A stretch of 64,000 nt of DNA from Antedon mediterranea (GCF_964355755.1 NC_092677.1:17506101-17570100); one strand, 5' to 3'. Positions 1,601 through 58,488 are shown, counted from the first letter of the stretch. Made by a program: numbers and translations. The notes: a model not told the origin generated them from the letters alone.

Positions 1601-3449
1601 TTTTAATTCTGTTTGTTATATTTACTAGTTCATATGGTTGATGCTTCTGCGGCTCCTGTCGTTTTTGTTGTTTTGGTGGTTTTTGCTGCTGCGGCTCTTG
1701 ATTTTATCAAATAAAGTAAACCTAAGGAAATCGTGCATTGTGTTCCATGTAGTCCAATTCTTTATACTTCATTCTTAGAGTCTTCAATATTGCTGTTTTA
1801 ATATCAGTTCCTGAAAATTTAATTGAAAATACATGTTACCGTACATATTAAAGTCCACAACACCTTACCCTTATCTTGCCGGATTCTTTTTAAGTGCAGT
1901 TCACATGAAAACGCATTCTTTTTTGATAGTGATCATTTTTTCACATTTTTAGAGGCAGTTCCCTTTCTGTTAGTTTTATGGAAAAAGTTTCTAAAAACAA
2001 ACGTTCCTTATGAAATAAGTACATTGTAAATTTAGTTTTTTGATTTTTTGAGTAATGGTTATAATATAACAAAAAAATGCCAAAAATGCAAAAAAAAAAA
2101 ATAAATTTTTTTTTTCAATATAAATATTGTTTGAATATAAATATTACATATTTAATGTTTATAAGCAGTATAGAGAACACAAGTATTCAAAAACCTGTGT
2201 GAAAAACTATATGATGTTGAATTAGTTAGCCACATATGCAATATGCGACGTCAACAGGGCCGCCACGTGAAGGCTTCAACATGGCCCCGAGGCCCCGGGG
2301 AGGGAAGGCAGCAAAAGTGTAATCAAGGTAATCAAGGTGATTGTAATTGAATGATTGATTTAAAAAAATGATGGTTGGAAATTACAGTTACTCTTTCAAA
2401 ACGCATAGCGATGAATTTGATTGAAAGTGGCTGAATTCCAGCCGTAAACCAGGCGACGCAAGACTAACCATGAAAAACCACAAAGAACTGCAAGAAGAAA
2501 TTGTAATAGAATTACGGCATTTGTGGTTTTTATACAGTATACAGGTATTAAAAAACAATGCTTTTCACGTCGTCCCTTTAGGCTGTTATTTTCGATGTGT
2601 AATAATATGGCCCGCGACCATGGAAGATTTTCATGTCACATGACTCGTACTTAATCACAACTTCTAAAAATCATGACCTTAATCATGAATCCATTACAAG
2701 TAAGATCAAAACTATAACAACCTTCTGGTCGAACAGTTTAAGGGTGGACAAGGCGCCAATAACTGAAGCACACTATTAGTTTGTCAGAGTCATCTATGTA
2801 ATAAAAGCTGTATGTTTTTTTTTTGATTAGGAGTGTATGGAGACTTATTGACAAATTACCACTCATGACCAAACTGTCATTTTGCATTGCCATTCATAGT
2901 CAGTAAACCAGAGAATGGCAAGTACGGAACAAAATTGGTAGCTTACGGACCACTTTTTTATGTAGATCTAAAATTATTTTGTGGCCTTGAGTGTGATGTG
3001 GCTGTTCTTACCTGTCCTTTTTTGGAGGTGGAGGCCTGGCTGCCGACTTCTCCTCAGAGGCTTTGGCCTGGACCTTTGTGGCAGCCTGCAAAAAAAAATT
3101 GGAGTTTGATAATTGCCTTAACTATATACTCTACTACACTCTAAAACTAAATGTCCATTTTAAAATTACATATACAAATACATCATCAATGACGTGCAAG
3201 TTGGATGAATCTTTATGCAAATGCGGCTCAAATTGCCCAATAGTAACATGTTAATACACATGGTTTCTATAATATAAAACATTTAATAGGTATGGTAATT
3301 AATTATTGGTAAAGCTATGTATGTAAAACTATTAATAAGTAGTTAAAATTTAAACCTATTACAATATTATAAACAATAGTCAAATCTACTCTTGTTGATG
3401 TCTTTGCTTAAAGTAAATCTGTCTGTGCGCAGAATCAATCGGAGCTAAA

Positions 3450-3641
3450 TTAAATACTTCGGTTTTGATTAAGTCCATTCTGTTCGCGTCGAGTAGCGCC
3501 GTTTTGTCCTGATGTGTTGCAATTTCGTCTTTCTTCCTCGGTGAAGTAGTATTCTGTCAATAGTTGTGCCATCTTTAGTCGGTAAAGCTGAGTAGTTTGT
3601 CGCAGTAAGTCCTGTGGAATTTTATTGGGGTCATTGTTCAA
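3450..3641 (-). pseudogene. BEN-domain-like fragment
   Basis: MAQLLTEYYFTEEERRNCNTSG...GLNQNR resembles the BEN consensus (L..lFt.eE...cn..G...Ld..r). Confidence 0.4.
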
Positions 3642-4169
3642 TGGTGGTTGTTGGTTTATTTCTGCTTGTGGGAGAGAGAGATCCTGCTGCCATGCGGTAT
3701 GTCCGCCAGGGGAACATATTCTCGACGATACAATTTTTTTTAGAGGGAAAAAGTATCTGTACTTTGTTTCTCTATGTAAATTGCGTTACTATAAAGCGTC
3801 GACATATATCCAGATGGCAGTTTGATAATAATCCGAGGTTGTATATCAAATCTTTTCTGTTCGGTTTTCATATATTTTCATCAGTAGAATATTTTGTGAA
3901 TCTAACCTGTTTCTTGCAGGCGGTTTATACCATCTTAGATCACCACATGATGAAGCAGATAAATACAGTAAAAAAGTAACATCAAAACTATAACAACCTT
4001 AAAATAGTAAGACTGATTTAAGAATTTTAATGAATAACTGTATATTTAAAAGAGTTTATACCATTATACGTACATTGAATATTTGATCAGCTTTGAATTC
4101 TTGCTAGATGGATAGCTTCTTCTGCTTGGGTTAGATTGCAAAGAACCGTATTGAAACCAGTGGGAAGGC

Positions 4170-4475
4170 ATTTTATAGTGGTGTCGTGTATACTATTTCT
4201 GATATTTCTGAAGCACCAGGCTAAAAAATTCCCTCTGAAGTCCTTGATCTATGGCTTTTTCTGTTTGATTTATGGAGTCGGTAAAAAGTATGGATAGCTT
4301 CTTTGATGGGCTAAATGATTTCCTTTTAAGGCTCCGAACAGCTCCAGTACAAACGTTCGACCGACAGATATTGAACATGGAGTTTCCGCTCATTTCATCT
4401 ATAATTGATCAGAATAAAACCAAACAATCTATATCTTCGTTCCTAAAAAATAAATGGAAGAATTGGATTAGCAAA
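4170..4475 (-). pseudogene. G2E3-like HECT ubiquitin ligase N-lobe fragment (other copies at ~5195-5300, 44245-44550, 51730-51890)
   Basis: ICRSNV...LKRKSFSPSKKLSILFTD...EKAIDQGLQREFFSL resembles the HECT 'V.F..E.a.D.GGp.REFF' motif; near-identical DNA recurs 4 times. Confidence 0.6.
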
Positions 4476-4500
4476 TTCATTTAGGAAGCCTACCACCAAT

Positions 4501-5150
4501 CTATTGACTATTGTCAGGAGGGGATGACTGCCATCGCTTTTTGTATCTCAAAAAGTAGATTAGTTCTTGTTCTTTAATTGATGAATCTGTTGACCCATCA
4601 GACAAAATAGCCAGATAGCTTGCGTTATCAAGATAATTTGACATTTTTTTTCTTTCAACCTGGGATATTTCATCGGCGAATACTTTTGCCGTTGATTGGT
4701 TAGTGTACGTGTTGCCAATGACCAAACTATCTAATTTGCATTGCCATTCATAGTCAGTAAATGGCCTGTTATTCATTGCCAGAGAATGGCAAGTACGGAA
4801 CAAAATTGGTAGCTTATGGACCACTTTTTTATTTAGATCTAAAATTATTTTGTGGCCTTAAGTGTGATGTGGCTGTTCGTTAGCCTTCACGAGCGCTTTC
4901 ACTTTTGCGTGTGTTGCCAATGATTCATGTAGTTTTATTGATTCTAGTTTTAAGGCGCTGGAATCTTCATAGAAAGTGTTACTTACGTTAATGCTTGGAT
5001 CTATTCTCGCTCCATCGACGCACGTCCGACAAGACATGGTACCGGACAAATCGTTGTGGAAAAGCCATGGTCGGCCATGTTGCCATGCTGACAAAAACTT
5101 TCTCTTGCATCCTTCTTTTTCATACTTTCTTTGTGATTCTGATTAGCGAT
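4501..5150 (-). mobile_element. hAT (ZNF862-like) transposase fragment; partial copy at ~2870-3007
   Basis: WQHGRPWL...MSCRTC...IKLHESLATH (TTF/BED-like zinc finger), then LFRTCHSLAMNNRPFTDYEWQCKLD...ILSDGSTDSSIKEQELIY (first catalytic D); frameshifted. Confidence 0.8.
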
Positions 5151-5845: not shown

Positions 5846-6150
5846 CTATAATAGATGTGTTTTTTCTTCATTTACATGAATTTCCTCAAGTTCCACCTCA
5901 TCATTTTGGCTGATAGAGAAATTGTGCAAGACGCAACAACTGCTAACTATTAGAGGCACCTTCGAAACATCTGTATAATTCCGTTGCATCAAAATACGCC
6001 ATCGACCTTTGAGTTGACCAAACGCTTGGTCTACAACCATGCGTGCCCTACTCAGTCGATAATTAAAGGTTCTTTGTTGCCTTTTGAAATTTGCACCTTC
6101 TGAGAATCCTTTCATTAGCCAAGGTAGTAGAGGGTAAGCTGGAGGGTAAA
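5846..6150 (-). mobile_element. PIF/Harbinger (HARBI1-like) transposase C-terminal fragment
   Basis: PAYPLLPWLMKGF...FNYRLSRARMVVDQAFGQLKGRWRIL...CCVLHNF (DDE_Tnp_4 signature). Confidence 0.9.
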
Positions 6151-6795
6151 AGGAATTGACTGTGTGGCTCTTCGTGTGATTAAATCTTTTAGGCCCAGAC
6201 CCAACGGGCATTTATGGGCTACTGTCTGGGGCTACTGTCTGGGGAAACTTACAGGATAAAGTTGCTGTCATCGGTATTTTTCGCTATCCCAAGACGTAAC
6301 AGTTCCAATAAAAAAGGAATTAGCCGTGTGGCTATTCGTGTGATTAAATTTTGTATAGCCCAACGGGCATTTCTGGGCCACTGTCTAGGGCTACTGTTTG
6401 GGGCAACTTACAGGATAAAGTTGCTGTCAATGATATTTTTGTGCACCCCAATGTGTAACAGTTGCAATGCAAAAGGAATTAGCCGTGTGGCTCTTGACAT
6501 GAATAACACCATTTTTTAGTGGTCACTTGGGGCTACTGTCTCGGGCAACTTACAGGATAAAGTTGCTGTCATTGCTGTTTTAACATTGTATACACATATG
6601 GGAACAATGTCCAACAACTTTTATCCGTGTGGCTTTTCACATGATTAAATCCATTTTTTACCCCTCCTATTTGGTGTCCCCAGGGTAAATTTACAGGATA
6701 GGACCCGGCAGCAATATTGATTATTGAATCTTGGCCATATATCTACCTAATCAGCCCATCAGACCTTTTGTGGCTTTTCACATGAATAAATCTTC
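6150..6795. repeat. Degenerate tandem repeat, ~4 units of ~140-165 bp
   Basis: Recurring motifs ttacaggataaagttgctgtca and ccgtgtggct.ttc...tgattaaat. Confidence 0.65.
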
Positions 6796-9700
6796 TGTTT
6801 ATTAAATCTTCTGTCTATTCTGATGTCTATTACTGTTGAGCGGCATGCCAGTCTTTTTTCTTGCAAATTTGAGCATACATTTGACAATCATTCGAGTGTG
6901 CTTGTGAATGTAGTTCCAAAATGCACTTGTCATTTACCTGTGAGCCAAGTCTCTTCTAAATCCATAACAGTTTTACATTCTAGTAACATAGATGCAAATT
7001 CTTCTTCATCACCTGCATCCATTAGGCCCTTTGAAAGGTCATTTCTAAAGACAATATCCAGAAAAAAAAATTGTTTGGATTTCTTTTGTATACCCAGATT
7101 TTTCAACTTGTCTTTGACATTTTGTATTTTTAATACTAGAGTAAATCTCTTCCATAGAAATTTTTTTTGTTTCACTTTTAAATTCAACCAAAATCGATTG
7201 ACTTCAGTCAATTTGACTTTCGCTTGCTTTAAATTACAGTTTTTGTTAAGAAAATCATTTCTTATTTTTTCCATCCAATTTTTTACGATTTGTGTCATTA
7301 AAATGGCATATTGAACAACAAAAATTGTAAGAATTATTTTTTCAAGGGGACAATACATCTTAATACTTATACATAGTGAAATTTTAATTTACATTTTCTA
7401 TATATTTATTCTTCATTATTTGCAATTTCTTGCTCAATTTGTAGAATTTGTTGATTCATTTTTCTCTTAACTTCAATTTGCTTTAGTTTTGGAAACTTGC
7501 GGAAAGTTGCAAGGTTTGCTAAAGTAAGATCATATCAGATTCTTTTTGGTCATCTCTTGCCTTATTTGACTTCTCCTTGATGTCTTCCTACATTTTTTCT
7601 TTTGCTGCAATTTGATTTAATGTAGTTTATTCATTATTCATTCCTTTATCATCTGCAGGAGCTTCAGATACCTTAACCCCCCCCCCCTCCCAAAAAAAAA
7701 CAAAAAAAAACAAATTAAATTAAATAACATTAGTCTGAACTTACTCCTGATGCAATATGTGATCAGCCCACTTGTACTTGTTCTTTGATTTGAATTCCTG
7801 ACCGCTTTTTGGAATCTACAAATCTTTCCATTTCTTAAAAGAATCTCTTGTGCTTTCAAATTTGGTCTTTACATAGTACATATGCTATGCTACGGTAATT
7901 AATTGAAAATAAGGTTGTAACTGTATTAAACTACTGTGGAGTAGCTTTGCGTCAGGGATTTGAGTAATTGGTCAGATGTTTTGCCCTACTCTAACGTAAC
8001 TTGTACTTCATACTTTCATTTGCAAGTAATTCTCGGGTGGAAAGAGTGCACGATAATTGTACCATAATGTAAAATACCTGAGAATTACAAGCCTATAATG
8101 TATGTATGTTTGATCAAAAGCTGCAAATTAACCTTATCCCTTCTGTTGTTAATGTTAAGGCATAGAGCCACTTGATTAGAGCCAAGCGATTAGGGAAGTT
8201 TCTGGCCACATAGAGTTCTGCGGTGTGACGTTACAATGATAGATGGCGCTGCGTGGTTCCTTTATATCATCATAATTGTCAATAATAACAAAAAAAGTTA
8301 AAAGCCTATAGATATTTTGATGTTCCATTGGTCCACTTATTATGCTATCTGAAGTATGCAAATTTTGGTAATATATTACCAAAAATACTCAATAATCATA
8401 GTCTATTTCACAATAAAATTAACATGCTGTCTCCATTTCTCTAAACAACTCTTTCAATGTCCTTTTATTCCCCCATAACTGCTCAGTTGGCTGATTATGA
8501 ACTGAGGACCAAACTGAAGTAGACATTTTGTTCCATTTTTTTAGCATTAACTGCCACACCTTTTATTTTCAACTTTGTTGTCAGGCAATCCATCCTTGAT
8601 TTTTTTAAATTATTTTTGGTCACAAGATGAACAATTTCATAATTTTCCTTCCTTTCCTTCATCATCTTTTCTTGACCCTCCAGTATCTACAGCCCCTTTT
8701 TTATAATTTTGTTATTTACTAAAGCTGCCGTTTATGGCGTTAAGGAAATTTAGGTCTCCATAGATCTAGGACACAAGCATGGACATCAATTATGAATGGT
8801 TTTGGAAGCATGTTTTTTTTAGTTGATTCAATCAAAACTAAAGAACAAGGTACTAAAATATGAAACTTCATTTCACAAACAGACTGGTGATGTTATTTCA
8901 AGTGTTTTCTGACATCACGTTGTTGTTGAGGTCGCTATGTTACACTGTGTCATCAACAATGCCTTTGTGGGAATAGATGTCTTGCTTCAACTCTGTTCAT
9001 TGTATCTTAGGACAATACAACCAATTATTCACAACATAAACACAGCAAGCGTCAACATTTTGAACCCATTAATAAGAATATTGTGTGTTTGAATAAATTT
9101 GCACAAGAAGTGTCCAGTATGTATGTAGACTATGGTTTCACGTATTTCATGTTGCATAATTGAAAACAAGAACAAATTTCGAAGTAGAAGATGTCATAGA
9201 ACTGTATTAAACAGGTATTGAATATTGTCTATTATTTTAGACAAGAGAAAGAGATGGAAAACCCAGCAAACATACCTATGGATCGAAGAAATTCATTTAA
9301 CTTCTAAATTATGGATAATAACAATTGGTTTTTGAAAAACTATATCAATCTCTAGAGAATATTATAAGCCTATTGCACTTGCTGGTCATTGCACCTGTTG
9401 TTCATAATGACGTCATATGCCTCTTCTGTTAGTAGATTTAATTATTACATGTGGAAACACGGCGAGAATCAACCAAGCCCACATACTTTAAAAGATGTTG
9501 ATTACATAAGCAGCCATTACAAAGAATCTAGGTGTATCAAGACCTAGATTTCAACTCTCACTGGCCATCAACATGCTCATAAGACAATGTACGTTGAACT
9601 TCTTCCATTTGAAACTCCTCGATAAATTTAGTTGCAACACGTTGAAAGAGATTCAACAAATCAAGTGTTAATTGTTAATACATCAGTAGTGTGGTATGGA

Positions 9701-10700
9701 AATGAACTGTAACAACAAGAGAAGATATAATACAGAAAAAAAAGAAGAAATTGGTACCCAGATTGGCATAAAATCCTCCAAAACAAACAACAATTAAAAA
9801 GGCTGGATGATCATGGAGATCTGTTTCTACAAACAGCAGAACAAAATCAATCAAATATTCAAATTGAAAATTATTTTTTCGGTCTAATCTGCAAACATGT
9901 TTACCTTGGAGAAACTGGAATTGAACAATAAGATGCAAGTCCCTGGGACGCCCGTCTTGGGTCCAGAAGATTACAAAGTGTATTCAAACCTGATACAAGT
10001 TAAAATACTTAAATAAATCAACCATCACATAAATGTAATTCAATTAAAACATATTGCACATTTGGAAATTCTCCATAAAGAACCATGCTGGTCTAAAAAT
10101 CCATCTGGATAAAAAAAATCAAAGATACAATGAACTAATATGACACATCTATCTATGATTTAATCATACAGGCGTATAAAAATAAAAGAGTAGCAGGAGC
10201 CATTGTCAACACTGCAGTAGTAACACACAACACCCTCAACAACACAGAGGTGAAGCCAGAAAAGAAATTATACCATCAGTCTACTTTAGAGATGTAGTTT
10301 GTGTACTTATTTATTTACTTTAGATTGATCAACAAGAAAAGGAACAGCATCTTTAAGATTAATTTCATCATTAAATGAATCCAATCATAAAATGAAATGA
10401 TTTAGCTCTATTGATCTTCAAAATATTATAATATCATCATTCTCTCTTTACCATTTATTAATTCATGTTGTTAAACTTCACCTTTACGGGATTTTTTTGC
10501 CGAATGGTTTATAGTCAACTCGGGAAAGAGTTTAACTCTCGCATAGTTTTTAGCAGAATTGAAATCAATACCACCATTTGGGATGTACAGATACTCCCCT
10601 TCTCGGCTAATTGAGCAGCTCTCTTTTTATTTCGATAAGTATAAAGCTTTTTTTGTTTCAGACATGCAAGTGACCAATTTTTGTTGTTGTAATTCTAACC

Positions 10701-10872
10701 TGCACCCATTGCATGGTCTGACATAATATGATTGTGTAGGTTTGTCATTCTGCACCCATTGCATGGTCTGACATAATATGATTGTGTAGGTTTGTCATTC
10801 TGCACCCATGGTCTGACATAATATGATTGTGTAGGTTTGTCATTCTGCACCCATTGCATGGTCTGACATAAT
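10701..10872 (+). repeat. 50-bp tandem repeat x3.5
   Basis: Unit tgcacccattgcatggtctgacataatatgattgtgtaggtttgtcattc; single copy at ~49011-49058. Confidence 0.9.
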
Positions 10873-10874
10873 AT

Positions 10875-11070
10875 CCTACTCCTACTGGCCAAACAATGTA
10901 GGCATCGTACATGAGGTCTACCACTGCCTGACACACTTGCTTGATGAATCTGCATACATTAGACCTGTGCACATCAAACATATTTCCAATTGTGCAAAGG
11001 TCGCAACACGTTGAAAACCTCCATAGCGTTATGCCAACTACATGCTCTACGGTCATCCCATTTCCAAAGT
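10875..11070 (-). mobile_element. Harbinger transposase HTH fragment (longer copy at 50960-51260)
   Basis: MTVEHVVGITLWRFSTCCDL.TIGNMFDVHRS.VCR.IKQVCQAV...YIVWP. Confidence 0.85.
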
Positions 11071-12929
11071 TTGTTGTTTCTCTTTGTAAATTAGGCCCCA
11101 GTATTCCACATAGAACAAAGTGTCATAAAAAACAATATTAACTTAATTTTGTTGTAGTTTTTGTAATTTATTGATAATTTTGTACCTAAATTTGGCCCGC
11201 ATAGCATTCGACTGACAACTCCTCTTAGTTCACTTGTCACTCGTTTATTGACATCAAAATCAAACTGTCTGAAATTGCAAAAGCATTTAAATTTACCACA
11301 AAAAAAAAAAATCTAGAAAACTGAACCAGCTTTTTAAACAAAAATGTTGTCTTTCAATAATTAAAAATTATTTTAAAAACTATATGTATCATTGACATTT
11401 TGTGCAACCTATTGAAAAAAGAAAATTCTTTACTTGCAAGACAGTTAACTGAAACTTTCCCTCATAGAATATGATGCAGGCCACAGCTACCTTTTGTTTA
11501 CTGCGTTTGTTTACCTCATACATACATGCATAATGTAATGTAGATTTAGAAATTTCTAAAACTGCTATCCATTCCCTTTAGAGCTGTTGTTTGTTTGTAA
11601 AATACAGGGCTCTGTATTAAATTTTCCATGCTCTTGCCACAGGGTATCTCGCACTGTGCAGAAAATCCACCCTTATCTTGTCTTGTGGCATTAGAGGTGG
11701 ACCTCAAATTTTATGACTCTTTGATATATAATTAATACATAGTATGTCGAAAATTAACTAATTCAGTATTCCTTTAATATACTAAAGTAGACAAGTAAAC
11801 AAATATTGTTTGGTTTCACATCCCATAGTTGAAAGTCCAGTTGAATTTTACACATTTTGGAACACATGATGATACAGTATTTCAATTTTTTGCAAATAGT
11901 AAAACAAAATGTTGTGCGGCTCTAAATACAAACTTGCAGATAAATTATTAACACAAATTAAAAACTTGAAACCTATTTTATTAACATCTTAAAACTGCTT
12001 AATTTTAACCCAGCACTTCTCGAATCTGGTAGAACAGAAGAAATATCATTTTGGTTGTAAAACACATCTACTTGGATCAGTGTTGCTGATGGTAGCGCAT
12101 CTGACCTCTTTCTTTGATTCAAGTCTACTTGATATGCTGCACGCTTCATTGTCTTTTAGGCAAGACCATAATTCTTTTTGTAAAGTAGAGTTGCATACTT
12201 CTTCTTGACATGCAGAGTTGAGGCCAGCAGACGTTTCATGTATAGATCTTTTTCGTTTCTCTTCTTGTTAATCAAATCCAGATAGTAATCTTTAAAATAA
12301 AAATATTTATGTTTAATAATTTTGTGGTAAATAAATTCTAATCAAATTATACAACTGATGGTAAATATACAGTCATAGAGTCTGATGTATCAATTTAACA
12401 AATTGAACCGCCCGAACGACGATTATGAGTTACCATTTAAACAATGTTTTCAGGAATAGGCAATTCATGAAAAGTTAAAAAACAATTATTTACAAACCTT
12501 TAAAATCCGTGTTCTGTCTAAAACATAAAACTTCACCGCGCTAGAAACAATATGAATTTTTGTATCCATTGCCGTTGTATTTATTCCTGGTATATTTAAG
12601 TCCTCGGCCTCTTCCACTGCGGTTTTTAATTAATTACTTCATTAGAACTAAAATAAATATAATGATAATCTTTATAAGCTGTCTTTAATGATTATTAATT
12701 TACAAAATATGTTCTACCATTTTTAGTTAGTACCTCCAGATTTGATTTAAAAACGGAATGTGAATTAATGGTGTCTATATCATCAGAAAGAGGCAATTTC
12801 AAATCCCTCCCTTTCCCCTGGTCATATATTGTATTGTTGCCTCCTCTGAAGAAATGATTTCAGTTACTGAGCCTATGAACCAGTCCTGTTCATAGGCCAT
12901 AGCAACAAACAACTGCCTCAGAAAATTGG

Positions 12930-14799
12930 CCAGGTTAAGGCATATGAATCCTACTGTATAATTCATTTCCTCTGTATACCAGGTCAAGGGATATCAATCC
13001 TACTGTATAATTCATTTCCTCTGTATACCAGGTCAAGGGATATCAATCCTACTGTATAATTCATTTCCTCTGTATACCAGGTCAAGGGATATCAATCCTA
13101 CTGTATAATTCATTTCCTCTGTATACCAGGTCAAGGCATATGAATCCTACTGTATAATTCATTTCCTCTGTATACCAGGTCAAGGCATATCAATCCTACT
13201 GTATAATTCATTTCCTCTGTATACCAGGTCAAGGCATATGAATCCTACTGTATAATTCATTTCCTCTGTATACCAGGTCAAGGCATATGAATCCTACTGT
13301 ATAATTCATTTCCTCTGTATACCAGGTCAAGGGATATCAATCCTACTGTATAATTCATTTCCTCTGTATACCAGGTCAAGGCATATGAATCCTACTGTAT
13401 AATTCATTTCCTCTGTATACCAGGTTAAGGCATATCAATCCTACTGTATAATTCATTTCCTCTGTATACCAGGTTAAGTCATATGAATCCTACTGTATAA
13501 TTCATTTCCTCTGTATACCAGGTCAAGGCATATCAATCCTACTGTATAATTCATTTCCTCTGTATACCAGGTTAAGTCATATGAATCCTACTGTATAATT
13601 CATTTCCTCTGTATACCAGGTTAAGGCATATGAATCCTACTGTATAATTCATTTCCTCTGTATACCAGGTCAAGGCATATGAATCATACTGTATAATTCA
13701 TTTCCTCTGTATACCAGGTTAAGGCATATGAATCCTACTGTATAATTCATTTCCTCTGTATACCAGGTCAAGGCATATGAATCATACTGTATAATTCATT
13801 TCCTCTGTATACCAGGTCAAGGCATATGAATCCTACTGTATAATTCATTTCCTCTGTATACCAGGTCAAGGCATATGAATCCTACTGTATAATTCATTTC
13901 CTCTGTATACCAGGTCAAGGCATATGAATCCTACTGTATAATTCATTTCCTCTGTATACCAGGTCAACGGATATCAATCCTACTGTATAATTCATTTCCT
14001 CTGTATACCAGGTTAAGGCATATCAATCCTACTGTATAATTCATTTCCTCTGTATACCAGGTTAAGGCATATCAATCCTACTGTATAATTCATTTCCTCT
14101 GTATACCAGGTCAAGGCATATGAATCCTACTGTATAATTCATTTCCTCTGTATACCAGGTCAAGGCATATCAATCCTACTGTATAATTCATTTCCTCTGT
14201 ATACCAGGTTAAGGCATATGAATCCTACTGTATAATTCATTTCCTCTGTATACCAGGTCAAGGCATATGAATCCTACTGTATAATTCATTTCCTCGACTG
14301 TATACCAGGTCAAGGCATATGAATCCTACTGTATAATTCATTTCCTCTGTATACCAGGTCAACGGATATCAATCCTACTGTATAATTCATTTCCTCTGTA
14401 TACCAGGTCAAGGCATATGAATCCTACTGTATAATTCATTTCCTCTGTATACCAGGTCAAGGCATATCAATCCTACTGTATAATTCATTTCCTCTGTATA
14501 CCAGGTTAAGGCATATCAATCCTACTGTATAATTCATTTCCTCTGTATACCAGGTTAAGGCATATCAATCCTACTGTATAATTCATTTCCTCTGTATACC
14601 AGGTTAAGGCATATCAATCCTACTGTATAATTCATTTCCTCTGTATACCAGGTCAAGGCATATCAATCCTACTGTATAATTCATTTCCTCTGTATACCAG
14701 GTCAAGGCATATGAATCCTACTGTATAATTCATTTCCTCTGTATACCAGGTCAACGGATATCAATCCTACTGTATAATTCATTTCCTCTGTATACCAGG
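12930..14799 (+). repeat. 49-bp minisatellite, 38 units
   Basis: Unit ccaggt(c/t)aaggcatat(g/c)aatcctactgtataattcatttcctctgtata; one unit carries a 3-bp insertion; contiguous units with no spacers. Confidence 0.97.
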
Positions 14800-16088: not shown

Positions 16089-16415
16089 TGTTAAGGTTGT
16101 AGGATTGTGAGCCATATCGATAACAGTATTTGACGCAGATACAAATGTTCTATCTAGAACTATAATAACTTTATTGTAATAAACTATACAAAGTACACAT
16201 CTACACAGTAGGAATAAATATGGAAGAGTGATTCACATAGAAGAATGTTATCATCTTAAGGAGTGAGCAAAGCAATGATGGATTGCTTTGTGGTCTGGGG
16301 ACAGTTCAGGTATATCATCTATTTCTTAGAACAGGAACTTTCACTTATCATCTATAGGTCAATGACCAGTAGGCTATTGGTAACATTTATTGTACAATGA
16401 GAGCACATTTTAACA
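16089..16415 (-). repeat. Copia 3' LTR (327 bp)
   Basis: Identical to 24678-25004 except one base seen by eye (ttcagg vs ttccgg); preceded on the minus strand by PPT GAGAACAAGTGGGAG (16416-16430). Confidence 0.97.
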
Positions 16416-23790: not shown

Positions 23791-23798
23791 TACATCTA

Positions 23799-38170: not shown

Positions 38171-38229
38171 TCCACCCCTACATGGTACCAAGGGCTTTTG
38201 ACAGGTATTGGATGCAACTCTGGTCTTGT

Positions 38230-44699: not shown

Positions 44700-46000
44700 G
44701 GCTGTATCAATTGATTTTTTCGCGCAGGTGCTGGACATATATTAAATGTTTCGGTTTTAACTAATTGCATATGTTTTGGATCTAGAATAAGTGCTCCATT
44801 TTTCCAGATATATTAACCTATCGCTAAAGAACTTACGTAATTCAAAAAATACGTCACACGAGTACATCAACGAATTACTGCGTACAAACAGTCCTTCCGG
44901 TCCTTGGCCTAGGCAATTAATTGATGTTATGACTGTGTATTTTTGTGAATGGCCTTGTATTAATAATATCAGTCGGCGTGACTGATGCCATCTTCCTGTT
45001 TTTCGCCATGGATTCTTGTGGCTTCCTCCCTTTTTTCCCTGCCCTTCCTTTGGCATTTGCACAAGACTGGTTCTAGATGGGTTCTTGCTTTAGGAGGTCG
45101 CTGTATATATTTCAAATGTTTCTATAATATTTCTTCTATTTCAGCTACACAAAGACTGTGCTTACATAAAGGACATGAATATTTAACATGATCCTTAAAA
45201 ATGGTACTATGATACATCCTATTTTTACATGACTTTGCTGCAACACGATATGTAACTCTGTTATTAACCTCCACTGTAGGCATTCTCAACTGCTTGTTTA
45301 TTGTTTAATAATTTTGTTGCAAGAGATCATCTGACCAGGCACCATCATTTTCAAAGATTTTCATCTGTGTTTTGAATATGTGTACCTTTTATTTCTTTTC
45401 TTTGTAATGCTTCATCCACTGACATGTTGTTGAATTTTTTCACATATTTCCTTCTTTCATTTTCATTCATCATGAATGAATCTGTAAATAGTTTACAATA
45501 TGTGAAAGTTCATAAATTTCACTTATTCCACATATCGCTAACTGAATCTCATGCTGCTGCTGATGATAGTCAACTTCTTTGTCCCATACATTTTTTGTAA
45601 ACCTTGGCTTTCTCATTCTTTTTTATTGCCTCCTTTTTTTCTGGTTAGTTTGTTGTTAATACTTTCTGATTGGTTTGTGTAGCATTTTAATGGTATGCCC
45701 TTACTGTTGAGCGGCATGCCAGTCTTTTTTCTTGCAAATTTGAGCATACATTTGACAATCATTCGAGTGTGCTTGTGAATGTAGTTCCAAAATGCACTTG
45801 TCATTTACCTGTGAGCCAAGTCTCTTCTAAATCCATAACAGTTTTACATTCTAGTAACATAGATGCAAATTCTTCTTCATCACCTGCATCCATTAGGCCC
45901 TTTGAAAGGCCATTTCTAAAGACAATATCCAGAAAAAAAAATTGTTTGGATTTCTTTTGTATACCCAGATTTTTCAACTTGTCTTTGATATTTTGTATCT
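44700..46000 (-). mobile_element. MULE-like transposase remnant (partial copy at 6831-7140)
   Basis: NIKDKLKNLGI...FFLDIVF...GLMDAGDEEEF...FWNYI...CYTNQSESINNKL (catalytic-E region); multiple frameshifts. Confidence 0.6.
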
Positions 46001-46703
46001 TTAATACTAGAGTTAAATCTCTTCCATAGAAAAATCGGTTGACTTCACTCAATTTGACTTTTGTTTGCTTTAAATTACAGTTTTTGTTTAGGTAAATCAT
46101 TTCTTTTTTTTCCATCAAGTTTTTTACGATATGTGTCATTAAAATGGCATATTGAACAACAATTTTACAATTTTTGTTGTTCAATATGCCAAGAATTATT
46201 TTTTCAAGGGGACAATACATCTTAATACTTATACATAGTGAAATTTTAACTTACATTTTCTGTATATTTATTCTTCATTATTTGCAATTTCTTGTTGGAT
46301 GGATGATGATGGCTGGCGCTGCGTGGTTCCTTTATATCATCATAATTGTCAATAATAACAAAAAAAGTTAAAAGCCTATAGATATTTTGATGTTCCATTG
46401 GTCCACTTATTATGCTATCTGAAGTATGCAAATTTGGTTAATATATTACCAAAAATACTCAATAATCATAGTCTATTTCACAAATGTCTTTTTATGCCCC
46501 CATAACTGCTCAGTTGGCTGATTATGAACTGAGGACCAAACTGAAGTGGACATTTTGTTCCATTTTTTTAGCATTAACTGCCACACCTTTTATTTTCAAC
46601 TTTGTTGTCAGGCAATCCATCCTTGATTTTTTTTAAATTATTTTTGGTCAGAAGATGAACAATTTCATAATTTTCTTTTCTTTCCTTCATCATCTTTTCT
46701 TGA

Positions 46704-46887
46704 CCCTCCAGTATCTACAGCCCCTCCAGTATCTACAGCCCCTCCAGTATCTACAGCCCCTCCAGTATCTACAGCCCCTCCAGTATCTACAGCCCCTCCA
46801 GTATCTACAGCCCCTCCAGTATCTACAGCCCCTCCAGTATCTACAGCCCCTCCAGTATCTACAGCCCCTCCAGTATCTACAGCCCCT
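46704..46887 (+). repeat. 18-bp perfect tandem repeat x10
   Basis: Unit ccctccagtatctacagc; single copy at 8676-8697. Confidence 0.97.
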
Positions 46888-49439
46888 TTTTTATAATGTT
46901 GTTATTTACTAAAGCTGCCGTTTATGGCGTTAAGGAAATTTAGATCTCCATAGATCTTGGCCATCAATTATGAATGGTTTTGGAAGCATGTTTTTTTTAG
47001 TTGATTCAATCAAAACTAAAGAACAAGGTACTAAAATATGAAACTTCATTTCACAAATAGACTGGTGATGTTATTTCAAGTGTTTTCTGACATCACGTTG
47101 TTGTTGAGGTCGCTATGTTACACTGTGTCATCAACAATGCCTTTGTGGGAATAGATGTCTTGCTTCAACTCTGTTCATTGTATCTTAGGACAATACGACC
47201 AATTATTCACAACATAAACACAGCAAGCGTCAACATTTTGAACCCATTAATAAGAATATTGTGTGTTTGAATAAATTTGCACAAGAAGTGTTCAGTATGT
47301 ATGTAGACTATGGTTTCACGTATTTCATGTTGCATAATTGAAAACAAGAACAAACTTCGAAGTAGAAGATGTCATAGAACTGTATTAAACAGGTATTGAA
47401 TATTGTCTATTATTTTAGACAAGAGAAAGAGATGGAAAACCCAGCAAACATACCTATGGATCGAAGAATTTCATTTAACTTCTAAATTATGGATAATAAC
47501 ATTTCGTTTTTGAAAAGCTATATCAATCTCTAGAGAATATTATAAGCCTATTGCACTTGCTGGTCATTACATCTGTTCATAATGACGTCATATGCCTCTT
47601 CTGGTAGTATATTTAATTATTATATATGGAAACACGCAAGAATCAACCAAGCCCACATACTTTAAAAGATGTCGATTACATAAGCAGCCATTACAAAGAA
47701 TGTAGGTGCATCAAGACCTAGATTTCAACTCTCACTGGCCATCAACGTTCATTTCAACGTGCTCATAAGACAATGTAGGTTGAACTTCTTCCATTTGGAA
47801 TTCCTCGATAAATTTAGTTGCAACACGTTGGAAGAGATTCAACAAATCAAGTGTTAATTGTTAATACATCAGTAGTGTGGTATGGAAATGAACTGTAACA
47901 ACAAGAGAAGATATAATACAAAAAAAGAGGAAGAAATTGGTACCCAGATTGGCATAAAATCCTCCAAAACAAACAACAATTAAAAAGGCTGGATGATCAT
48001 GGAGATCTGTTTCTACAAACAGCAGAACAAAATCAATCAAATATTCAAATTGAAAATAATTTTTTCGTTCTAATCTGCAAACATGTTTACCTTGGAGAAA
48101 CTGGAATTGAACAATAAGATGCAAGTCCCTGGGATGCCTGTCTGGGGTCCAGAAGATTACAAAGTATATTCAAACCTGATACAAGTTAAAATACTTAAAT
48201 AAATCAACCATCACATAAATGTAATTCAATTAAAACATATTGCACATTTGGAAATTCTCCATAAAGAACCATGCTGGTCTAAAAATCCATCTGGATAAAA
48301 AAAATCAAAGATACAATGAACTGATATGACACATCTATCTATGATTTAATCATACAGGCGTATAAAAATAAAAGAGTAGCAGGAGCCATTGTCAACACTG
48401 CAGTAACACACAACACCCTCAACAACACAGAGGTGAAGCCAGAAAAGAAATTATACCATCAGTCTACTTTAGAGATGTAGTTTGTGTACTTATTTATTTA
48501 CTTTAGATTGATCAACAAGAAAAGGAACAGCATCTTTAAGATTAATTTCATCATTAAATGAATCCAACCATAACATGAAATGATTTAGCTTTATTGATCT
48601 TCAAAATATTATAACATTATCATTCTCTCTTTACCCTTTATTAATTCATGTTGTTAAACTTCACCTTTACGGGATTTTTTTGCCGAATGGTTTATAGTCA
48701 ACTCGGGAAAGAGTTTAACTCTCGCATAGTTTTTAGCAGAATTGAAATCAATACCACCATTTGGAATGTACAAATAAAGCTTTTTTTGTTTTGTCCTTCT
48801 TAAAACCTGTATATATTTTTGCTTTCATACATGCAAGTGACCATTTTTGTTGTTGTAATTCTAACCTATACCTTCAAATTATTTTATTCCTTCTGAACAT
48901 TTTTGAATGCTCTTCCCAAATATATATATATTCATCATTTGGCATTAAAGTAATTTCTTCATATGCATCACATGAACTTTTTCCATGTTTTGTTGCAAAA
49001 AATGCCATTCTGCACCCATTCCATGGTCTGACATAATATGATTGTGTAGGTTTGTCATATTCATGTGGTTTTTGTTGGCTTTCAAAACCATCACTTAAAA
49101 TAAATTTATTTTACTTTTCCTGGAATTTGCTCTGCTTGTATGAAATGTATGTTTTGATGAATTCATCAAAAGTATTTATTTAATATAGTCCAAGATTAAT
49201 ATTTTAACACTTGCAGATTTTCATGTTTTAAAGGCAATCTTTAAAGGTTTGAAAGTTGTTTGCAATCTTCAAATGAGTGTGGGGTAATAAGGAAGCGTTC
49301 GCTTTCATCCTCGTCTAGCAGGGGTTTTGTGAACTGCTTCTCCAATGATACCATTTATGAAATCCGTTTAAACTCCTGAACTGTATCATTATGGACAGGT
49401 CACTGCAATTTGGTCAATAACGTTTCAAAGTGCTACACA

Positions 49440-49690
49440 TCCTCGCTATGGAATCATGGGCTGAATGCAGTGCGTGTTCTGGTGCGATGTCGGGATATTT
49501 GTCTACAAATCTCCCATATGCTGGAATACTTTGTTGTACATGCTTCCTGTTCTTAATGGCTGACACATCCCAAAATCTTGTGCGATTGTCTTAAAACTTT
49601 AATCTTAGTATAAGTATATTTCTTGAAGCCAAGTCATTGTGCAGTAATCCCAGACTATGCATTTTCTTAATCCTTGAGCCACGGCCAGTG
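49440..49690 (-). pseudogene. Protein kinase catalytic-core fragment
   Basis: KKMHSLGLLHNDLASRNILI, followed by DFGM and IAPE in shifted frames. Confidence 0.65.
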
Positions 49691-50959
49691 TAATGTCAAT
49701 TAACTTGATGGCATTGAAGTTTCCATCGTATACTCTCTTCCTTTCGTAAAACTGCATACACTTGTGAAAATGTTAATCATTCTCCAGATATACTTGAGGC
49801 ATCTGCATCTTTGGTGTCTTTATTATATTTCAATATTTTATTTTATATACATTGAGACATGCCAAGCTCCTCTCTCGACTCGCTTTTTTTTTTCCTTCTC
49901 TTTCAAAATTTCAAAACAGTTGAAAGTGAGGTGTAAAACTTCTTTCATTGTGACTTTAATTATCTACCAAATAAGTGAAATCAAAACTACTACATGTTTA
50001 TCGGGAAAGCGGACAATGCAACCACCAAATGTGTGTGTGAAGATCGAGTTGTGAGAAGTTACCTTGTTCTGTGTATTATCCTTTCCTCTTCCATGAGTAA
50101 TGCCCGCTTTAATATTTAGTGACTGTATTTTAGTGTAGGTCACAAACAATTTGACAGCTGCAACAGATTCCATTTCAGGGGGCAATCTGGAATTGAATAA
50201 AACTCAAACAATATAATTTTAAGTTCAACTATATAATAATCTCACAAAAGTAAGTTAACGTTATAATTCGACAGTAAATATATTTGATACGCTCATGTGA
50301 CTTATTTATAGTCTGCTGTCCGGTTGTTTATATATAGCTCGTAATAAGCTCTACTCCTCCCTCAAGCGTTAATCAAACATCAATCGGTCAAATTAAAAAA
50401 TACAAAACTTAAAGAATAATATATTACATTGAACGTACATGAAATTGTGCGACAACTTATCGCATTCTATTGGCCTTCGAACAGAAATCAATCAAATTAA
50501 AACATAAAACTCTGTGGCTGATTAGCCTAAAATCAATAATTGACTCAAAATATCAAACTTAATAACTTGAAACTTTAAAGAAACAAATGTGTGTGTTCCG
50601 TTAACACAACTTTATCGATTTAAGCATTTATACTCACAGGTAATTACGATTTCAATCGGTCGACAAATTCGACTTTTGTACTCAATGGAAAAAAAATAGA
50701 GGAGAAAAAGCAAGGGTCCCAATATAGACCCTGTGGGATCCCACATATACTGTAAGAATATATTTAAGAATTAAATTTACCATACCAATTATCATCTAAA
50801 ACATAAAAATATACATTATGTAAATATACATATAAAATGAAAATATTTTTTAGTTAATTTTGTTGTAGTTTTTGTAACCTATTGAAAATTTTGTACCTAA
50901 ATTTGGCCCGCATACCATTCAACTCCTCTTAGTTCACTTGTCACTAGTTTATTGACATC

Positions 50960-51260
50960 ACAGCTTTTGACTGTTTAGGTGCAAGAATAGGGATGTGTGA
51001 TCCGTCAATGGCACTTGCACATTGAGGAAAGCCATGCAGTACATTGAAGCCTGGTACAGTAGTAGTTAAGCGATCTCCTACTGGCCAAACAATGTAGGCA
51101 TCGTACATGAGGTCTACCACTGCCTGACACACTTGCTTGATGGATCTGCATACAGTAGACCTGTGCACATCAAACATATTTCCAATTGTGCGAAGGTCGC
51201 AACACGTTGAAAACCTCCATAGCGTTATGCCAACTACATGCTCTACGGTCATCCCATTTC
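50960..51260 (-). mobile_element. Harbinger transposase fragment
   Basis: VGITLWRFST...HGFPQCASAIDGSHIPILAP (first catalytic D). Confidence 0.9.
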
Positions 51261-53591
51261 CAAAGTTTGTTGTTTCTCTTTGTTCTATGTGGAATACTGC
51301 GGCCTAATTTACAAAGTGTCATAAAAAACAATGTTAACTTAATTTTGTTGTAGTTTTTGTAATTTATTGATAATTTTGTACCTAAATTTGGCCCGCATAG
51401 CATTTGACTGACAACTCCTCTTAGTTCACTTGTCACTCGTTTATTGACATCAAAATCAAACTGTCTGAAATTGCAAAAGCATTTAAATTTACCACAAAAA
51501 AAAAAAAATCTAGAAAACAGAACATCTTGGGAGGACATTCCTTCCTGATCTTCTTCAGTGCTGTTAAGAACATTATAGGTGAAGAAATGGAAACATTAAC
51601 ATGGTTGAATGTATTGTCATCCCGGTTTTTGTAATTGCTAGTTGCCTCAACCAACGGTCGCTCAGCCCCCAGCTCTCAGATGGTACTGTCGCAGGAATTC
51701 GATGGGATGGGAGGGGGAGGGGGAGAGGCATTTTATAGCGGTGTCATGAAAACAGGCCCTTCAAATATACTATTTCTGATATGTTAAAGCACCAGGCTAA
51801 AAAATTCTCTGAGGTCCTTGGTTAATGGCGTCAGTAAAAAGTATGGATAGCTTCTTTGATGGGCTAAATGATTTCCTTTTGAGGCTCAGAGCAGATAGTA
51901 ATCTTTAAAATAAAAATATTTATGTTTAATAATTTTGTGGTATACTGTAACTGTGCTGGAGTGATAAAATTAGTTTTCATTAATATAAATAAATTCTAAT
52001 CAAATTATACAACTGATGGTAAATATACAGTCATAGAGTCTGATGTATCAATTGAACCGCCCGAACGACGATTATGAGTTATTATGTTACCGTTTAAACA
52101 ATGTTTTCAGGAATAGGCAATTCATGAAAAGTTCAAAAACAATTATTTACAAACCTTTAAAATCCGTGTTCGGTCTAAAACATAAAACTTCACCGCGCTA
52201 GAAACAATATGAATTTTTGTATCCATTGCCGTTGCGTATGTATTTATTCCTGGTATATTTAAGTCCTTGGCCTCTTCCACTGCGGTTTTTAGTTTGTCTA
52301 ATGTCGTTGCAGACTCGTTGCTCTATGCTTCTGGACTCTCTTTTTTGTTAACTCTCTGTACTTTTTTTTTTCAAGTCAAGATTGTCTCTGTAGTCTATTC
52401 AATGCATTTATATTTTTTGTCTGATAATAATAATTATTTCAAATTATATATCTTCATTAATTACTTCATTAGAACTAAAATAAATATAATGATAATCTTT
52501 ATAAGCTGTCTTTAATGATTATTAATTTACAAAATATGTTCTACCATTTTTAGTTAGTACCTCGCCAGCCTATGAACCAGTCCTGTTCATAGGCCATAGC
52601 AACAAACAACTGCCTCAGAAAATTGGCCAGGTTAAGGCATATGAATCCTACTGTATAATTCATTTCCTCTGTATACCAGGGAAAGTTCATAAAGAATTCC
52701 TGTGGTAAGAAGAGACAAACAGATAAGAAACTTTTAAGCTATGAACACAGTTTTTGCTTAAAATTGCAATATTGTATTTGTTTTAACCCCTTTTAACAAA
52801 TTCTGCAACACGCTGGAAGCCGCACCCTTGTCTGTGTTTCCCCTTGCCTCCTGGGAGTGGCCTCATTATTGCTGCCCTTAAAAGGCGGGTCAGGCGCCTC
52901 GATCAGAGCAGCTTGAGCTCTAAATACACATGCCAAGCTTATTGCCCATGCAATAGTTGGTGAAGATGTGTGCAGTAATTCTCATTCAAGAGGGCATCCT
53001 TATATTCTTTGTCTGCTAAAGCATGGTCCCATTTAATTTAAAACAAGTTTATTTACACGAAAGTGGCAATAGGTCAGGAGAAGCTACCTGCATTTTTGCA
53101 CAAGTTTGTTCATGGCCATTGTTTATTGTGTGCATTTGGAGTTATAAAATTGAGTTATCCACCTAGTGCGGAACCAGTTCATCATCCTAACTATACAAAA
53201 TCACTTCAAAGATCTTCCTGAAGCTGTATGATTCAATTTCGGTAGCCAGTATCCTTTTCAGTGTCATCCAAAAAATAAGGGAGAAAAGTTGGAAATGTTT
53301 GCATCCCATACCTCATATGGATGCATTGGTGCCTTGAATTTGACATGAATGTACAGGTATTTTCTTTTAGCACTGGATATAGTCCAGCCTCTAATGGCCA
53401 GAGCTAACTTTTCTGCATCTTTGATGGCTTCTTGTATTTCAAATTAATGTTGAATTTATGCCAAGCACCTCTCTCATCTCACCTGATTCCCTTATAATGC
53501 CAATTGCTCTTTTTCTTTCACAGAACTTTTAATGGCAAATGTTTTTCTTTTCTTGTTTTTTCTTTATTATTATATATTATATTGGCCTAGA

Positions 53592-54033
53592 CTAAACAGT
53601 ACCTGATTGTCTGTCGTTGATTGTAGCTGGCCTAGGTCTAGGCATTGGCCGCCGATTGCCAGCCATCCCAACCTCATTTGGTGCAAACGAGTCTCTAATA
53701 GAAACTAGGGCTGGATTGATACTGGGACGCCTACCTAGTATAGCATTCAATACAGCATAATGTTTGAAGTCTATTTCTTCCGTCCCAGCACCTGATTTGT
53801 TTGATTTGTCTTTAGCTGCCTTGAATGCAGCTTGCAGACATTTTATTTTGGTCTGGACATAATGTCCTTCTTTTTGGCTATGACCAAGATTTTGGAGTTT
53901 CAACGCAATTTCCTTGAAAACAGCCATCTTGTTGCCGACGCTAGCTTTCCAGTTTTTTTATTTCAAGCCTGTCTATATATTCAGGTCTGCCCCATAATGC
54001 AATCAAATCAACCACTTCTGTACTCTTCCATGT
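53592..54033 (-). pseudogene. Myb/SANT-like (trihelix) Harbinger accessory gene, frameshifted
   Basis: LIALWAD..I, then AVFKEIALKLQNLGH...VQTKIKCL...KDKSNKSGAG...FKHYAVLNAILGRRPS. Confidence 0.7.
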
Positions 54034-54344
54034 AACATGTTTAGTTTTGTTATTTTCGAATATTGCTGTTGATTGTAAAAAACTGGCCATGCTAGCTCGA
54101 GAAACCGCGCGAATAGACTGGCTGCTGATTGCGGTCGTGTCTTTTCATTGGCTGACGTTGACTGGAGGTTGAAATCACTGATGCATCAATGAATGAGCGT
54201 TATGAAATCTACCCTCTTCCGCTAGGGTTATTAACGCCACTGGCGCGGAGTAACAGCTCCCTAACGCTAATCTGCAGCCTGGTTCAGACAAAAAAGTATG
54301 TAGCTGCTTACATAACTCTACCTTAATGCCGTGAGTCTGAACAT

Positions 54345-58317: not shown

Positions 58318-58488
<171 letters not shown>

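What the first reader, a model, noticed from the sequence alone, without database searches (positions are those of the whole stretch)
2860..54050. Extreme strand bias: essentially every TE/gene fragment over ~51 kb is on the minus strand (unistrand piRNA-cluster-like)
Seen: BEN, four HECT-N pieces, hAT, three Harbinger pieces, MULE, THAP, Copia, Polinton pPolB, Kolobok transposase, HECT-C, OTU, PHD, Ginger-like integrase, RAG1-like, OB-fold-like, kinase and Myb/SANT all read on the minus strand. The only exception I found is KolX, which is obligately opposite its transposase. Plus-strand LINE pieces occur only outside the block (825-1045, 54470-55705). Independent insertions should orient randomly. 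Known: flamenco-type unistrand piRNA clusters accumulate antisense, nested, fragmented TEs. Inference: a plus-strand precursor would be antisense to many superfamilies, including a Polinton virus.
Basis: partly seen in the sequence, partly recalled or inferred. Interest (0 to 1): 0.78.

Follow-up and report, generated by a model that had tools for sequence, protein, structure and literature searches.

The report
One-way transposon archive, piRNAs untested
About 52 kb of this marine-animal genome is a patchwork of broken transposon and virus-like genes that nearly all point the same way, likely because one long RNA read from the other strand would turn them into silencing small RNAs (piRNAs), but those small RNAs could not be tested.

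Summary
In 2860-54050, 11 of 202 minus-strand and 2 of 208 plus-strand ORFs hit Pfam at E<=1e-3; one plus hit is KolX. Two strand-blind coding scores agree (14 minus vs 3 plus). After collapsing an 8-kb duplication and copied pieces, 8 of 8 confirmed one-way units are minus (p=0.008; about 0.03 with boundaries chosen afterwards). BEN, HECT-N, OTU, RAG1-like, MULE and kinase labels were not confirmed.

New anatomy: a young Copia (LTRs differ at 1 of 327 bases, 5-bp target duplication) holds a Polinton remnant with its own terminus; one deletion removed the rest of it. A Kolobok has intact ends. One public library holds a spliced KolX contig and bridges the Copia/Polinton junction; the strand of the latter is unknown.

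Best reading (0.55): a plus-strand-transcribed, unistrand piRNA source locus, like the DNA-transposon-rich mollusc clusters rather than Gypsy-rich flamenco. No small RNA and no genome-wide baseline were available. The scan noted this layout before in at least 4 other genomes.

The parts
2253..2340 (+). Candidate 5' end of a plus-strand transcription unit: CRE-like site, E-box, AACATGGC and a donor-like site (motif names recalled)
   Evidence: Only plus-strand match to AA[ACG]ATGGC[GC] in the window; sequence. Picked after the fact; function untested; could also be a start codon of a gene scrap
2865..3007 (-). Copy of part of the hAT-type piece
   Evidence: 86% match to 4718-4878; tblastn
3453..3785 (-).
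   Evidence: No Pfam, PDB or Atlas support
4189..4476 (-). HECT-N-like piece; copies at 5189-5301, 44285-44549, 51766-51894 (one unit)
   Evidence: Copies 78-95% alike and all direct; HECT label by eye only (negative)
4504..5142 (-). hAT-type transposase piece (C17orf113-type zinc finger)
   Evidence: PF25431 E 4.9e-4; hAT label recalled
5849..6211 (-). Harbinger DDE transposase, C-terminal piece
   Evidence: PF13359 E 2.6e-15
6830..14884 (.). Copy 1 of an 8-kb direct duplication: MULE-like piece, Harbinger N-terminal piece 10748-11122, 49-bp satellite 12930-14799
   Evidence: 82-100% matches to 45701-52765; satellite
16089..25004 (-). Young Copia LTR retrotransposon: 327-bp LTRs, target duplication GATGG, intact gag; protease-integrase region lost; RT has a frame break near 17.48 kb
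   Evidence: LTRs differ at 1 of 327 bases
18018..23803 (-). Polinton/Maverick remnant nested in the Copia: (AGT)2 terminus at 23803, subterminal 102/108-bp repeats, broken pPolB cut off at 18018 and joined to Copia RT
   Evidence: PF03175 E 1e-18 and 4.5e-17; terminus matches the motif in PMC8097293 section 7; junction bridged by one X1 contig
28390..33633 (-). Kolobok (Kol0-type) element with AGAATA ends and TTAA on both sides; THAP plus transposase on the minus strand
   Evidence: TTAA rule recalled
29303..29841 (+). KolX accessory gene of the Kolobok, the one confirmed plus-strand coding piece; intron 29566-29684
   Evidence: PF20478 E 6.5e-10; KolX resembles the P2X7 C-terminus (PMC9587614, passages); intron skipped in an X1 contig
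35756..36402 (-). HECT C-lobe piece (weak) and OTU-like piece (unconfirmed)
   Evidence: PF00632 E 0.013; PDB searches empty
37795..38177 (-). PHD finger piece and adjoining coding-like piece
   Evidence: PF00628 E 8.9e-5; the overlapping plus ORF 37674-37880 has no relative in 1.84 billion proteins
38119..38621 (-). Integrase piece (H2C2 zinc finger and start of core), split by an intron-sized gap, so Ginger-like
   Evidence: PF17921 E 1e-13; frames; splice sites not checked
39304..39480 (-).
   Evidence: No PDB or Pfam match
42485..42712 (-). OB-fold-like piece (very weak)
   Evidence: PF16900 E 0.13
44972..46250 (-). MULE-like transposase pieces (label by eye)
   Evidence: High coding scores; no fitting Pfam hit
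45701..52765 (.). Copy 2 of the 8-kb duplication, with Harbinger N-terminal piece 50947-51303 (-) and LINE RT scrap 50651-50753 (-)
   Evidence: PF13613 E 0.011
53595..54144 (-). Myb/SANT-like gene piece
   Evidence: PF13837 E 1.7e-5
54321..54465 (-). LINE RT piece; last minus unit, strand switch at about 54,465
   Evidence: PF00078 E 2.6e-4; junction
54470..55718 (+). Plus-strand LINE RT and endonuclease pieces just outside the block
   Evidence: PF00078 E 6.5e-7; PF14529 E 0.0013

Best explanation
The 52-kb block is a dense, nested, locally duplicated heap of transposon and Polinton pieces that read on the minus strand, and it is likely a unistrand piRNA source locus: one long plus-strand RNA would be antisense to nearly all of them and would be cut into silencing piRNAs. 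Shown: the strand bias; three separate insertions (Copia, Polinton, Kolobok); a large deletion inside a Copia whose LTRs are still almost identical, so the locus turns over fast; a library that holds spliced KolX sequence and the Copia/Polinton junction. Inferred: Pol II starts near 2.25-2.3 kb and reads to about 54.5 kb; elements land in either direction; antisense coding pieces are kept because their piRNAs silence active copies elsewhere, while sense pieces are lost or trimmed; direct duplications and deletions then reshuffle the archive without changing strand. Untested: the precursor, its strand and the piRNAs.
For: Pfam 11 of 202 minus vs 2 of 208 plus. 8 of 8 confirmed one-way units minus (p=0.0078). 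Strand-blind scores 13:3 and 14:3. DNA transposons, an LTR element, a LINE and a Polinton all share the strand. Copia has its own 5-bp target duplication and the Polinton its own terminus, so their orientation is not inherited from a duplicate. Non-coding repeats sit in both orientations (two families), which fits a filter on coding content better than polar insertion. The plus strand is pyrimidine-rich in 70 of 102 tiles of the block against 9 of 19 to its right. No intact host gene, tRNA or Rfam RNA was seen in the block. An X1 contig skips 29566-29684 exactly at GT..AG while the X2 and X5 contigs run through it, and another X1 contig bridges the Copia/Polinton junction. Precedent: snail clusters are enriched in Kolobok and hAT, oyster class 2 clusters in Polinton (PMC6128900, passages); 402 of 457 Nematostella clusters are unistranded (PMC5731801, passages).
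Against: No small RNA was tested. The independent count is small: p is about 0.03 once boundaries are free, before allowing for the many windows scanned, and there is no genome-wide baseline. Polinton and Kolobok are two-strand element types, so their orientation is a weak vote; without Polinton the count is 7 of 7 (p=0.016). Both coding scores favour purine-rich DNA and still list 3-8 plus-strand segments, somewhat above the control. AATAAA is not depleted on the plus strand (75 plus vs 80 minus). The spliced KolX contig is explained by KolX's own promoter or by sister copies (6 differences and 24 gap letters in one arm). The junction contig has no strand, comes from one sample and could be carried-over DNA; no silent control stretch could be laid. 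In planarian type B clusters DNA transposons, Polintons included, are mostly sense to the piRNAs (bioRxiv 10.64898/2026.01.28.702291, section 6), so a biased block need not be antisense.
Confidence: 0.55

Rival explanations
1. An untranscribed transposon graveyard. A few founding insertions happened to share a strand, direct duplications and deletions multiplied them, and the boundaries were drawn around the run.
For: The 8-kb duplication and the small dispersed duplicates inside the block are direct. Only 8 confirmed units; run probability about 0.03. Both flanking host-like genes look broken: the TRPC-like exon has an in-frame stop and the CDC7 exon is interrupted. The two 8-kb copies differ by about 3% substitutions in the longest block (63 of 2038), so part could even be two haplotypes assembled in series (not tested).
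Against: The bias remains with one duplicate masked. The youngest separate insertions follow the rule.
Confidence: 0.22
2. The block is an intron or the body of a plus-strand gene or long non-coding RNA. Sense insertions were purged because they cut or mis-splice the transcript; no piRNAs are involved (intronic antisense bias, recalled).
For: A plus-strand CDC7 exon lies to the right (E 7e-13) and a plus-strand start-like motif group to the left.
Against: The CDC7 exon is interrupted by an insertion with a stop, and motif searches found no other CDC7-like exon in the window. Plus-strand LINE pieces lie between the block and that exon. AATAAA is not depleted on plus. DNA-transposon scraps are not expected to show a strong intronic bias (recalled).
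Confidence: 0.12
3. One giant cargo-capturing element (Helitron- or Pack-type) collected gene scraps in its own direction, and later insertions matched by chance.
For: Many 100-400-bp pieces of unrelated genes are joined end to end and reused locally.
Against: No inverted repeats pair the block ends among the 25 longest of 360 pairs. No Rep or helicase Pfam hit. Copia, Polinton and Kolobok have their own ends.
Confidence: 0.06
4. The block is transcribed on the minus strand, sense to the pieces, for example from the Copia LTR or towards the TRPC-like gene. It would act as a ping-pong substrate, like planarian type B clusters.
For: The X1 junction contig could be a sense read-out from the Copia 5' LTR. 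The TRPC-like gene needs an upstream minus-strand exon (acceptor near 755). Planarian precedent.
Against: A sense transcript would meet many donors and poly(A) signals of the embedded genes (inference). The only strand-resolved RNA seen, spliced KolX, is plus.
Confidence: 0.05

Closest known systems
Drosophila flamenco and flam-like unistrand piRNA clusters (PMC10643416, passages; PMC13226689, abstract)
   Same: Dense, fragmented transposons with most pieces on one strand; such clusters were predicted from strand bias alone in that paper.
   Different: Flam-syntenic clusters are 227-1,085 kb and their bias is driven by Gypsy elements only. This block is 52 kb, mostly DNA-transposon pieces plus one Copia, a LINE and a Polinton, and has no small-RNA data.
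Mollusc piRNA clusters of pond snail and oyster (PMC6128900, passages)
   Same: Enriched for young elements, including Kolobok and hAT (snail) and Polinton (oyster class 2), the mix seen here.
   Different: They were defined by sequenced piRNAs. The passages read give no per-cluster strand bias to compare.
Nematostella unistrand clusters (PMC5731801, passages) and planarian Seed/Spread clusters (bioRxiv 10.64898/2026.01.28.702291, abstract and section 6)
   Same: One-strand piRNA loci exist in other invertebrates; planarian type A clusters are antisense to transposons.
   Different: Planarian antisense enrichment is for LTR elements; their DNA-transposon and Polinton content is mostly sense (type B).
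Maverick/Polinton elements (PMC8097293, passages and section 7)
   Same: (AGT)2 terminus and a pPolB gene pointing inward from that end.
   Different: Only 5.8 kb with one end is left; no second end, integrase or capsid genes were found. Vertebrate elements carry a second module on the other strand; whether this family does was not tested.

Membership tests
Unistrand piRNA cluster | Produces 24-32-nt, 1U-biased piRNAs from one strand | not testable with these tools
   No small-RNA run among the 5 holders listed; only contigs could be laid
Unistrand piRNA cluster | One long precursor from one promoter | tested here: inconclusive
   Motif group at 2253-2340; X1 has cover in 30 of 30 bins of 23300-31900, but no piece spans it and contigs give no strand
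Unistrand piRNA cluster | Dense, nested, fragmented transposon content | tested here: met
   tool-confirmed elements cover 17,407 of 51,606 bases, the rest is repeats and unlabelled scraps
Unistrand piRNA cluster | Transposon pieces share one strand | tested here: met
   8 of 8 confirmed one-way units; strand-blind scores agree
Unistrand piRNA cluster | That strand is antisense to transcription | tested here: inconclusive
   Only KolX's splice gives a strand, and its own promoter explains it
flamenco / flam-like clusters | Strand bias driven by Gypsy LTR elements | tested here: not met
   No Gypsy gag or RT hit; the one integrase piece looks intron-split; criterion from PMC10643416
Copia LTR retrotransposon (16089-25004) | Paired TG..CA LTRs, target duplication, gag and RVT_2 | tested here: met
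   protease-integrase region missing
Polinton/Maverick (18018-23803) | pPolB and (AGT)2 terminus | tested here: met
Polinton/Maverick (18018-23803) | Second terminal repeat, target duplication, integrase and capsid genes | tested here: not met
   Not found in the window; it is a remnant, not a whole element
Kolobok, Kol0 lineage (28390-33633) | Transposase plus KolX accessory gene; short inverted ends with TTAA | tested here: met
   (TTAA rule recalled)

The most novel reading that the evidence does not exclude
This is an echinoderm antiviral and anti-transposon memory locus that is edited after capture. Two-strand invaders are trimmed by deletion to their antisense half: a Polinton DNA virus integrated into a very young Copia and then lost everything except the polymerase end that is antisense to the precursor. 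That would make deletion, not only choice of insertion, the force that builds a unistrand cluster.
Probability: 0.2. Interest if true: 0.7.

Novelty: new member of a known kind. Interest (0 to 1): 0.42.

Why it matters
If small RNAs confirm it, this is a mapped piRNA source locus in an echinoderm class for which my searches listed no piRNA-cluster paper. It would show that strand bias alone can find clusters built from DNA transposons and Polintons, not only from Gypsy elements. The Copia/Polinton nest gives an ordered series of events (Copia insertion, Polinton insertion, deletion) that population data could test for selection. If not confirmed, it is an ordinary rearranged transposon heap.

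Tried and rejected
No genome is held for the window, so no genome-wide strand baseline, copy numbers or empty-site test were possible. No RNA holder listed; X1 was only a guessed RNA run. Contig depths were not used to rank anything. Only 23300-31900 could be laid, so the candidate start, both boundaries and a silent control stretch have no read evidence. Table 5 is cut (12 rows not shown), so missing transposase splice joints prove nothing. A plus ORF that looked protein-like (37674-37880) was tested as a counter-example: no Atlas hit, no relative in 1.84 billion proteins, and the minus frame scores higher. A short query makes these blanks weak. Searches for related loci were empty for pPolB in viral contigs and for the Kolobok in metagenome contigs. 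The TRPC-like exon gave no hit and only weak ankyrin/TRPC4-5 hits (E 0.005-0.3). No tRNA or Rfam match. ORFs under 45 aa were not scanned in Pfam, except 35756-35881. The inverted repeat 25291/33766 was first taken for Kolobok ends and rejected: it is a palindromic non-coding repeat, and the ends are at 28390 and 33633. Capture of Polinton RNA by Copia template switching was considered and ranked lower, because the Polinton begins flush at its own terminus; it is not excluded. Literature search returned nothing.


Full report
Setting. The window is AT-rich animal DNA (GC 0.32-0.40) from a contig of about 28.6 Mb. The Copia gag's named relatives come from crabs, soft corals, a priapulid, echinoderms and fish. 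Earlier scan notes call this genome a feather star; I did not test that label.

Is the strand bias real? I scanned all 503 stop-to-stop ORFs of 45 aa or more, on both strands, against Pfam; 10 ORFs inside the 49-bp satellite were left out. Inside 2860-54050, 11 of 202 minus ORFs and 2 of 208 plus ORFs hit at E<=1e-3. The plus hits are KolX (P2RX7_C) and a weak DUF on a K-rich ORF. At E<=0.02 the count is 21 minus and 8 plus, most of the extra hits being unrelated families. To avoid relying on labels I scored coding potential blind to strand, after masking Copia/Polinton, Kolobok, the Harbinger DDE, Myb, the LINEs and the left duplicate (the hAT, PHD and integrase pieces stayed unmasked). A codon model trained on the window's confirmed frames picked the right strand in 64 of 70 held-out chunks and gave 13 minus vs 3 plus segments, against 1.2 per control (overlaps not collapsed). 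An amino-acid model trained on 119 foreign gag proteins gave 26:8, 18:6, 14:3, 9:1 and 5:0 at thresholds 4 to 8 (not cross-validated). Both models favour purine-rich DNA, so they are not independent of the base skew (plus strand pyrimidine-rich in 70 of 102 block tiles and 9 of 19 tiles to the right).

How many independent votes? 6830-14884 and 45701-52765 are a direct duplication. The four HECT-N-like pieces, the hAT piece and a LINE scrap are local copies. THAP and the transposase belong to one Kolobok. Confirmed one-way units are hAT-type, Harbinger, Copia, the Polinton remnant, PHD, integrase, Myb and LINE RT: 8 of 8 minus, p=0.0078. The Kolobok is set aside as two-stranded. With free boundaries a run of 8 among 13 has p=0.027; if the unconfirmed labels hold, 13 among 19 has p=0.001. 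BEN, HECT-N, OTU, RAG1-like, MULE and kinase found no support in Pfam, PDB, the Atlas or the protein search. They remain by-eye labels. The one plus ORF I suspected was a counter-example has no relatives. The minus run ends at about 54,465, where a minus LINE RT piece abuts a plus one. Two non-coding repeat families occur in both orientations inside the block.

Anatomy of the young insertions. Copia 16089-25004 has 327-bp TG..CA LTRs that differ at one base and GATGG on both sides, so it is a recent insertion of its own. Just after the start of its protease, at 23803, the sequence switches to AGTAGTAG followed by 102/108-bp repeats. (AGT)2 is the commonest Maverick end motif (PMC8097293, section 7). 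A broken pPolB follows and is cut off at 18018, where it runs into Copia RT. The simplest order is Copia insertion, Polinton insertion, then one deletion taking the rest of the Polinton and the Copia protease-integrase region (inference). Vertebrate Mavericks carry a second gene module on the other strand. If this family does too, the deletion removed the part that was out of line with the block; that is the basis of my novel case and is untested. The Kolobok spans 28390-33633 with AGAATA ends and TTAA on both sides, transposase on minus and KolX on plus (PMC9587614, passages).

RNA evidence. Five runs hold 26001-36000, none on record as RNA. I laid three on 23300-31900. One X1 contig joins 29565 to 29685, skipping GTAAGT...TTATAG, while X2 and X5 contigs run through that intron. 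X1 therefore holds spliced plus-strand KolX sequence and is likely an RNA library. That contig may come from KolX's own promoter or from a sister copy. Another X1 contig (23766-24243, 2 differences) bridges the Copia/Polinton junction with 38 letters on the Polinton side; the listed X2 and X5 contigs stop at 23804, and 2,911 further pieces were not shown. So the junction exists in a second library and is probably transcribed. Contigs give no strand, this is one sample, DNA carry-over is possible and no silent control could be laid.

Ends. At 2253-2340 a CRE-like site, an E-box and the window's only plus-strand AACATGGC match lie within 35 bases, followed by a donor-like site (names recalled). 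This suits a plus-strand start 0.5 kb before the block, but was noticed after the fact. AATAAA is not depleted on plus (75 vs 80). The flanking host-like pieces look broken: TRPC-like exons on minus with an in-frame stop, and one CDC7 exon on plus interrupted by an insertion, with no other exon found by motif search.

Mechanism. Most likely (0.55) a plus-strand precursor makes piRNAs antisense to these families; selection keeps antisense coding pieces, and direct duplications and deletions reshuffle them. The bias, the separate insertions and the fast turnover are shown. Promoter, precursor, selection and piRNAs are inferred. Rivals: untranscribed graveyard with duplication and chance (0.22), intronic or lncRNA antisense bias without piRNAs (0.12), giant cargo element (0.06), sense transcription (0.05).

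Comparison. It works like flamenco but fails its Gypsy criterion (PMC10643416, passages). The content is closer to mollusc clusters enriched for Kolobok, hAT and Polinton (PMC6128900, passages). Unistrand clusters are the rule in Nematostella (PMC5731801, passages). Planarian type B clusters hold DNA transposons mostly in sense (bioRxiv 10.64898/2026.01.28.702291, abstract and section 6), a caution. piRNAs are reported from starfish, sea cucumber and sea urchin (PMC8538981, passages). Searches listed no paper on crinoid piRNA clusters, 25 of 291 papers were listed and two of them, both reviews, mention piRNA. The library is open-access only and no supplements were read. Also read: PMC10045372 (passages), bioRxiv 10.1101/2023.08.22.554363 (passages), PMC13226689 (abstract). 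The scan has 26 similar notes in at least 4 other genomes, sea urchins among them; these are unchecked and are not support.

Verdict. A real one-strand transposon block and a good candidate for a known kind of locus, unproven without small RNAs. Interest 0.42.

Noticed in passing
window 16089-25004: A young Copia holds a Polinton end at 23803, and the pPolB remnant runs in frame into Copia RT at 18018 (one 571-aa ORF with both Pfam domains). Both parts have frame breaks, so it is a dead chimera.
   Followed up: yes
window 6830-14884 and 45701-52765: 8-kb direct duplication with about 3% substitutions in its longest block. A 49-bp unit is a 38-copy array in copy 1 and about one unit in copy 2; an 18-bp unit has 10 copies in copy 2 only. 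A haplotype artefact was not excluded.
   Followed up: partly
window 33-755 (-): TRPC-like ankyrin exons with good splice sites but an in-frame stop in the second exon; a plus-strand LINE 3' end (by eye) lies just upstream at 824-1048.
   Followed up: partly
window 58340-58625 (+): Single CDC7 exon (E 7e-13) interrupted by a 135-bp insertion that starts with a T-rich run; no other CDC7 exon was found by motif search.
   Followed up: partly
window 28386-28816: An X1 contig begins exactly at the Kolobok's left TTAA, upstream of the KolX coding start: read-through from flanks or DNA carry-over.
   Followed up: no
window 41458-41672 and 56140-56240: Heads of a non-coding repeat with CACGCGACT ends and an ACCA/ACCG microsatellite (HINE-like, recalled); two face each other at 41.5-41.7 kb.
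   Followed up: partly
window 25291-26133 and 33659-33766: High-copy palindromic GGTCCGG repeat family; many contigs of all three laid runs match 25.3-26.1 kb.
   Followed up: no
window 36548-36838 and 59067-59357: 291-bp segment 99% identical inside and outside the block, same orientation; also 61475-62226 vs 63063-63765 at 81%.
   Followed up: no
window 35352-35725, 40069-40232, 41846-42036, 6148-6492: Short tandem arrays (105, 56, 86 and 159 bp units) scattered through the block.
   Followed up: no
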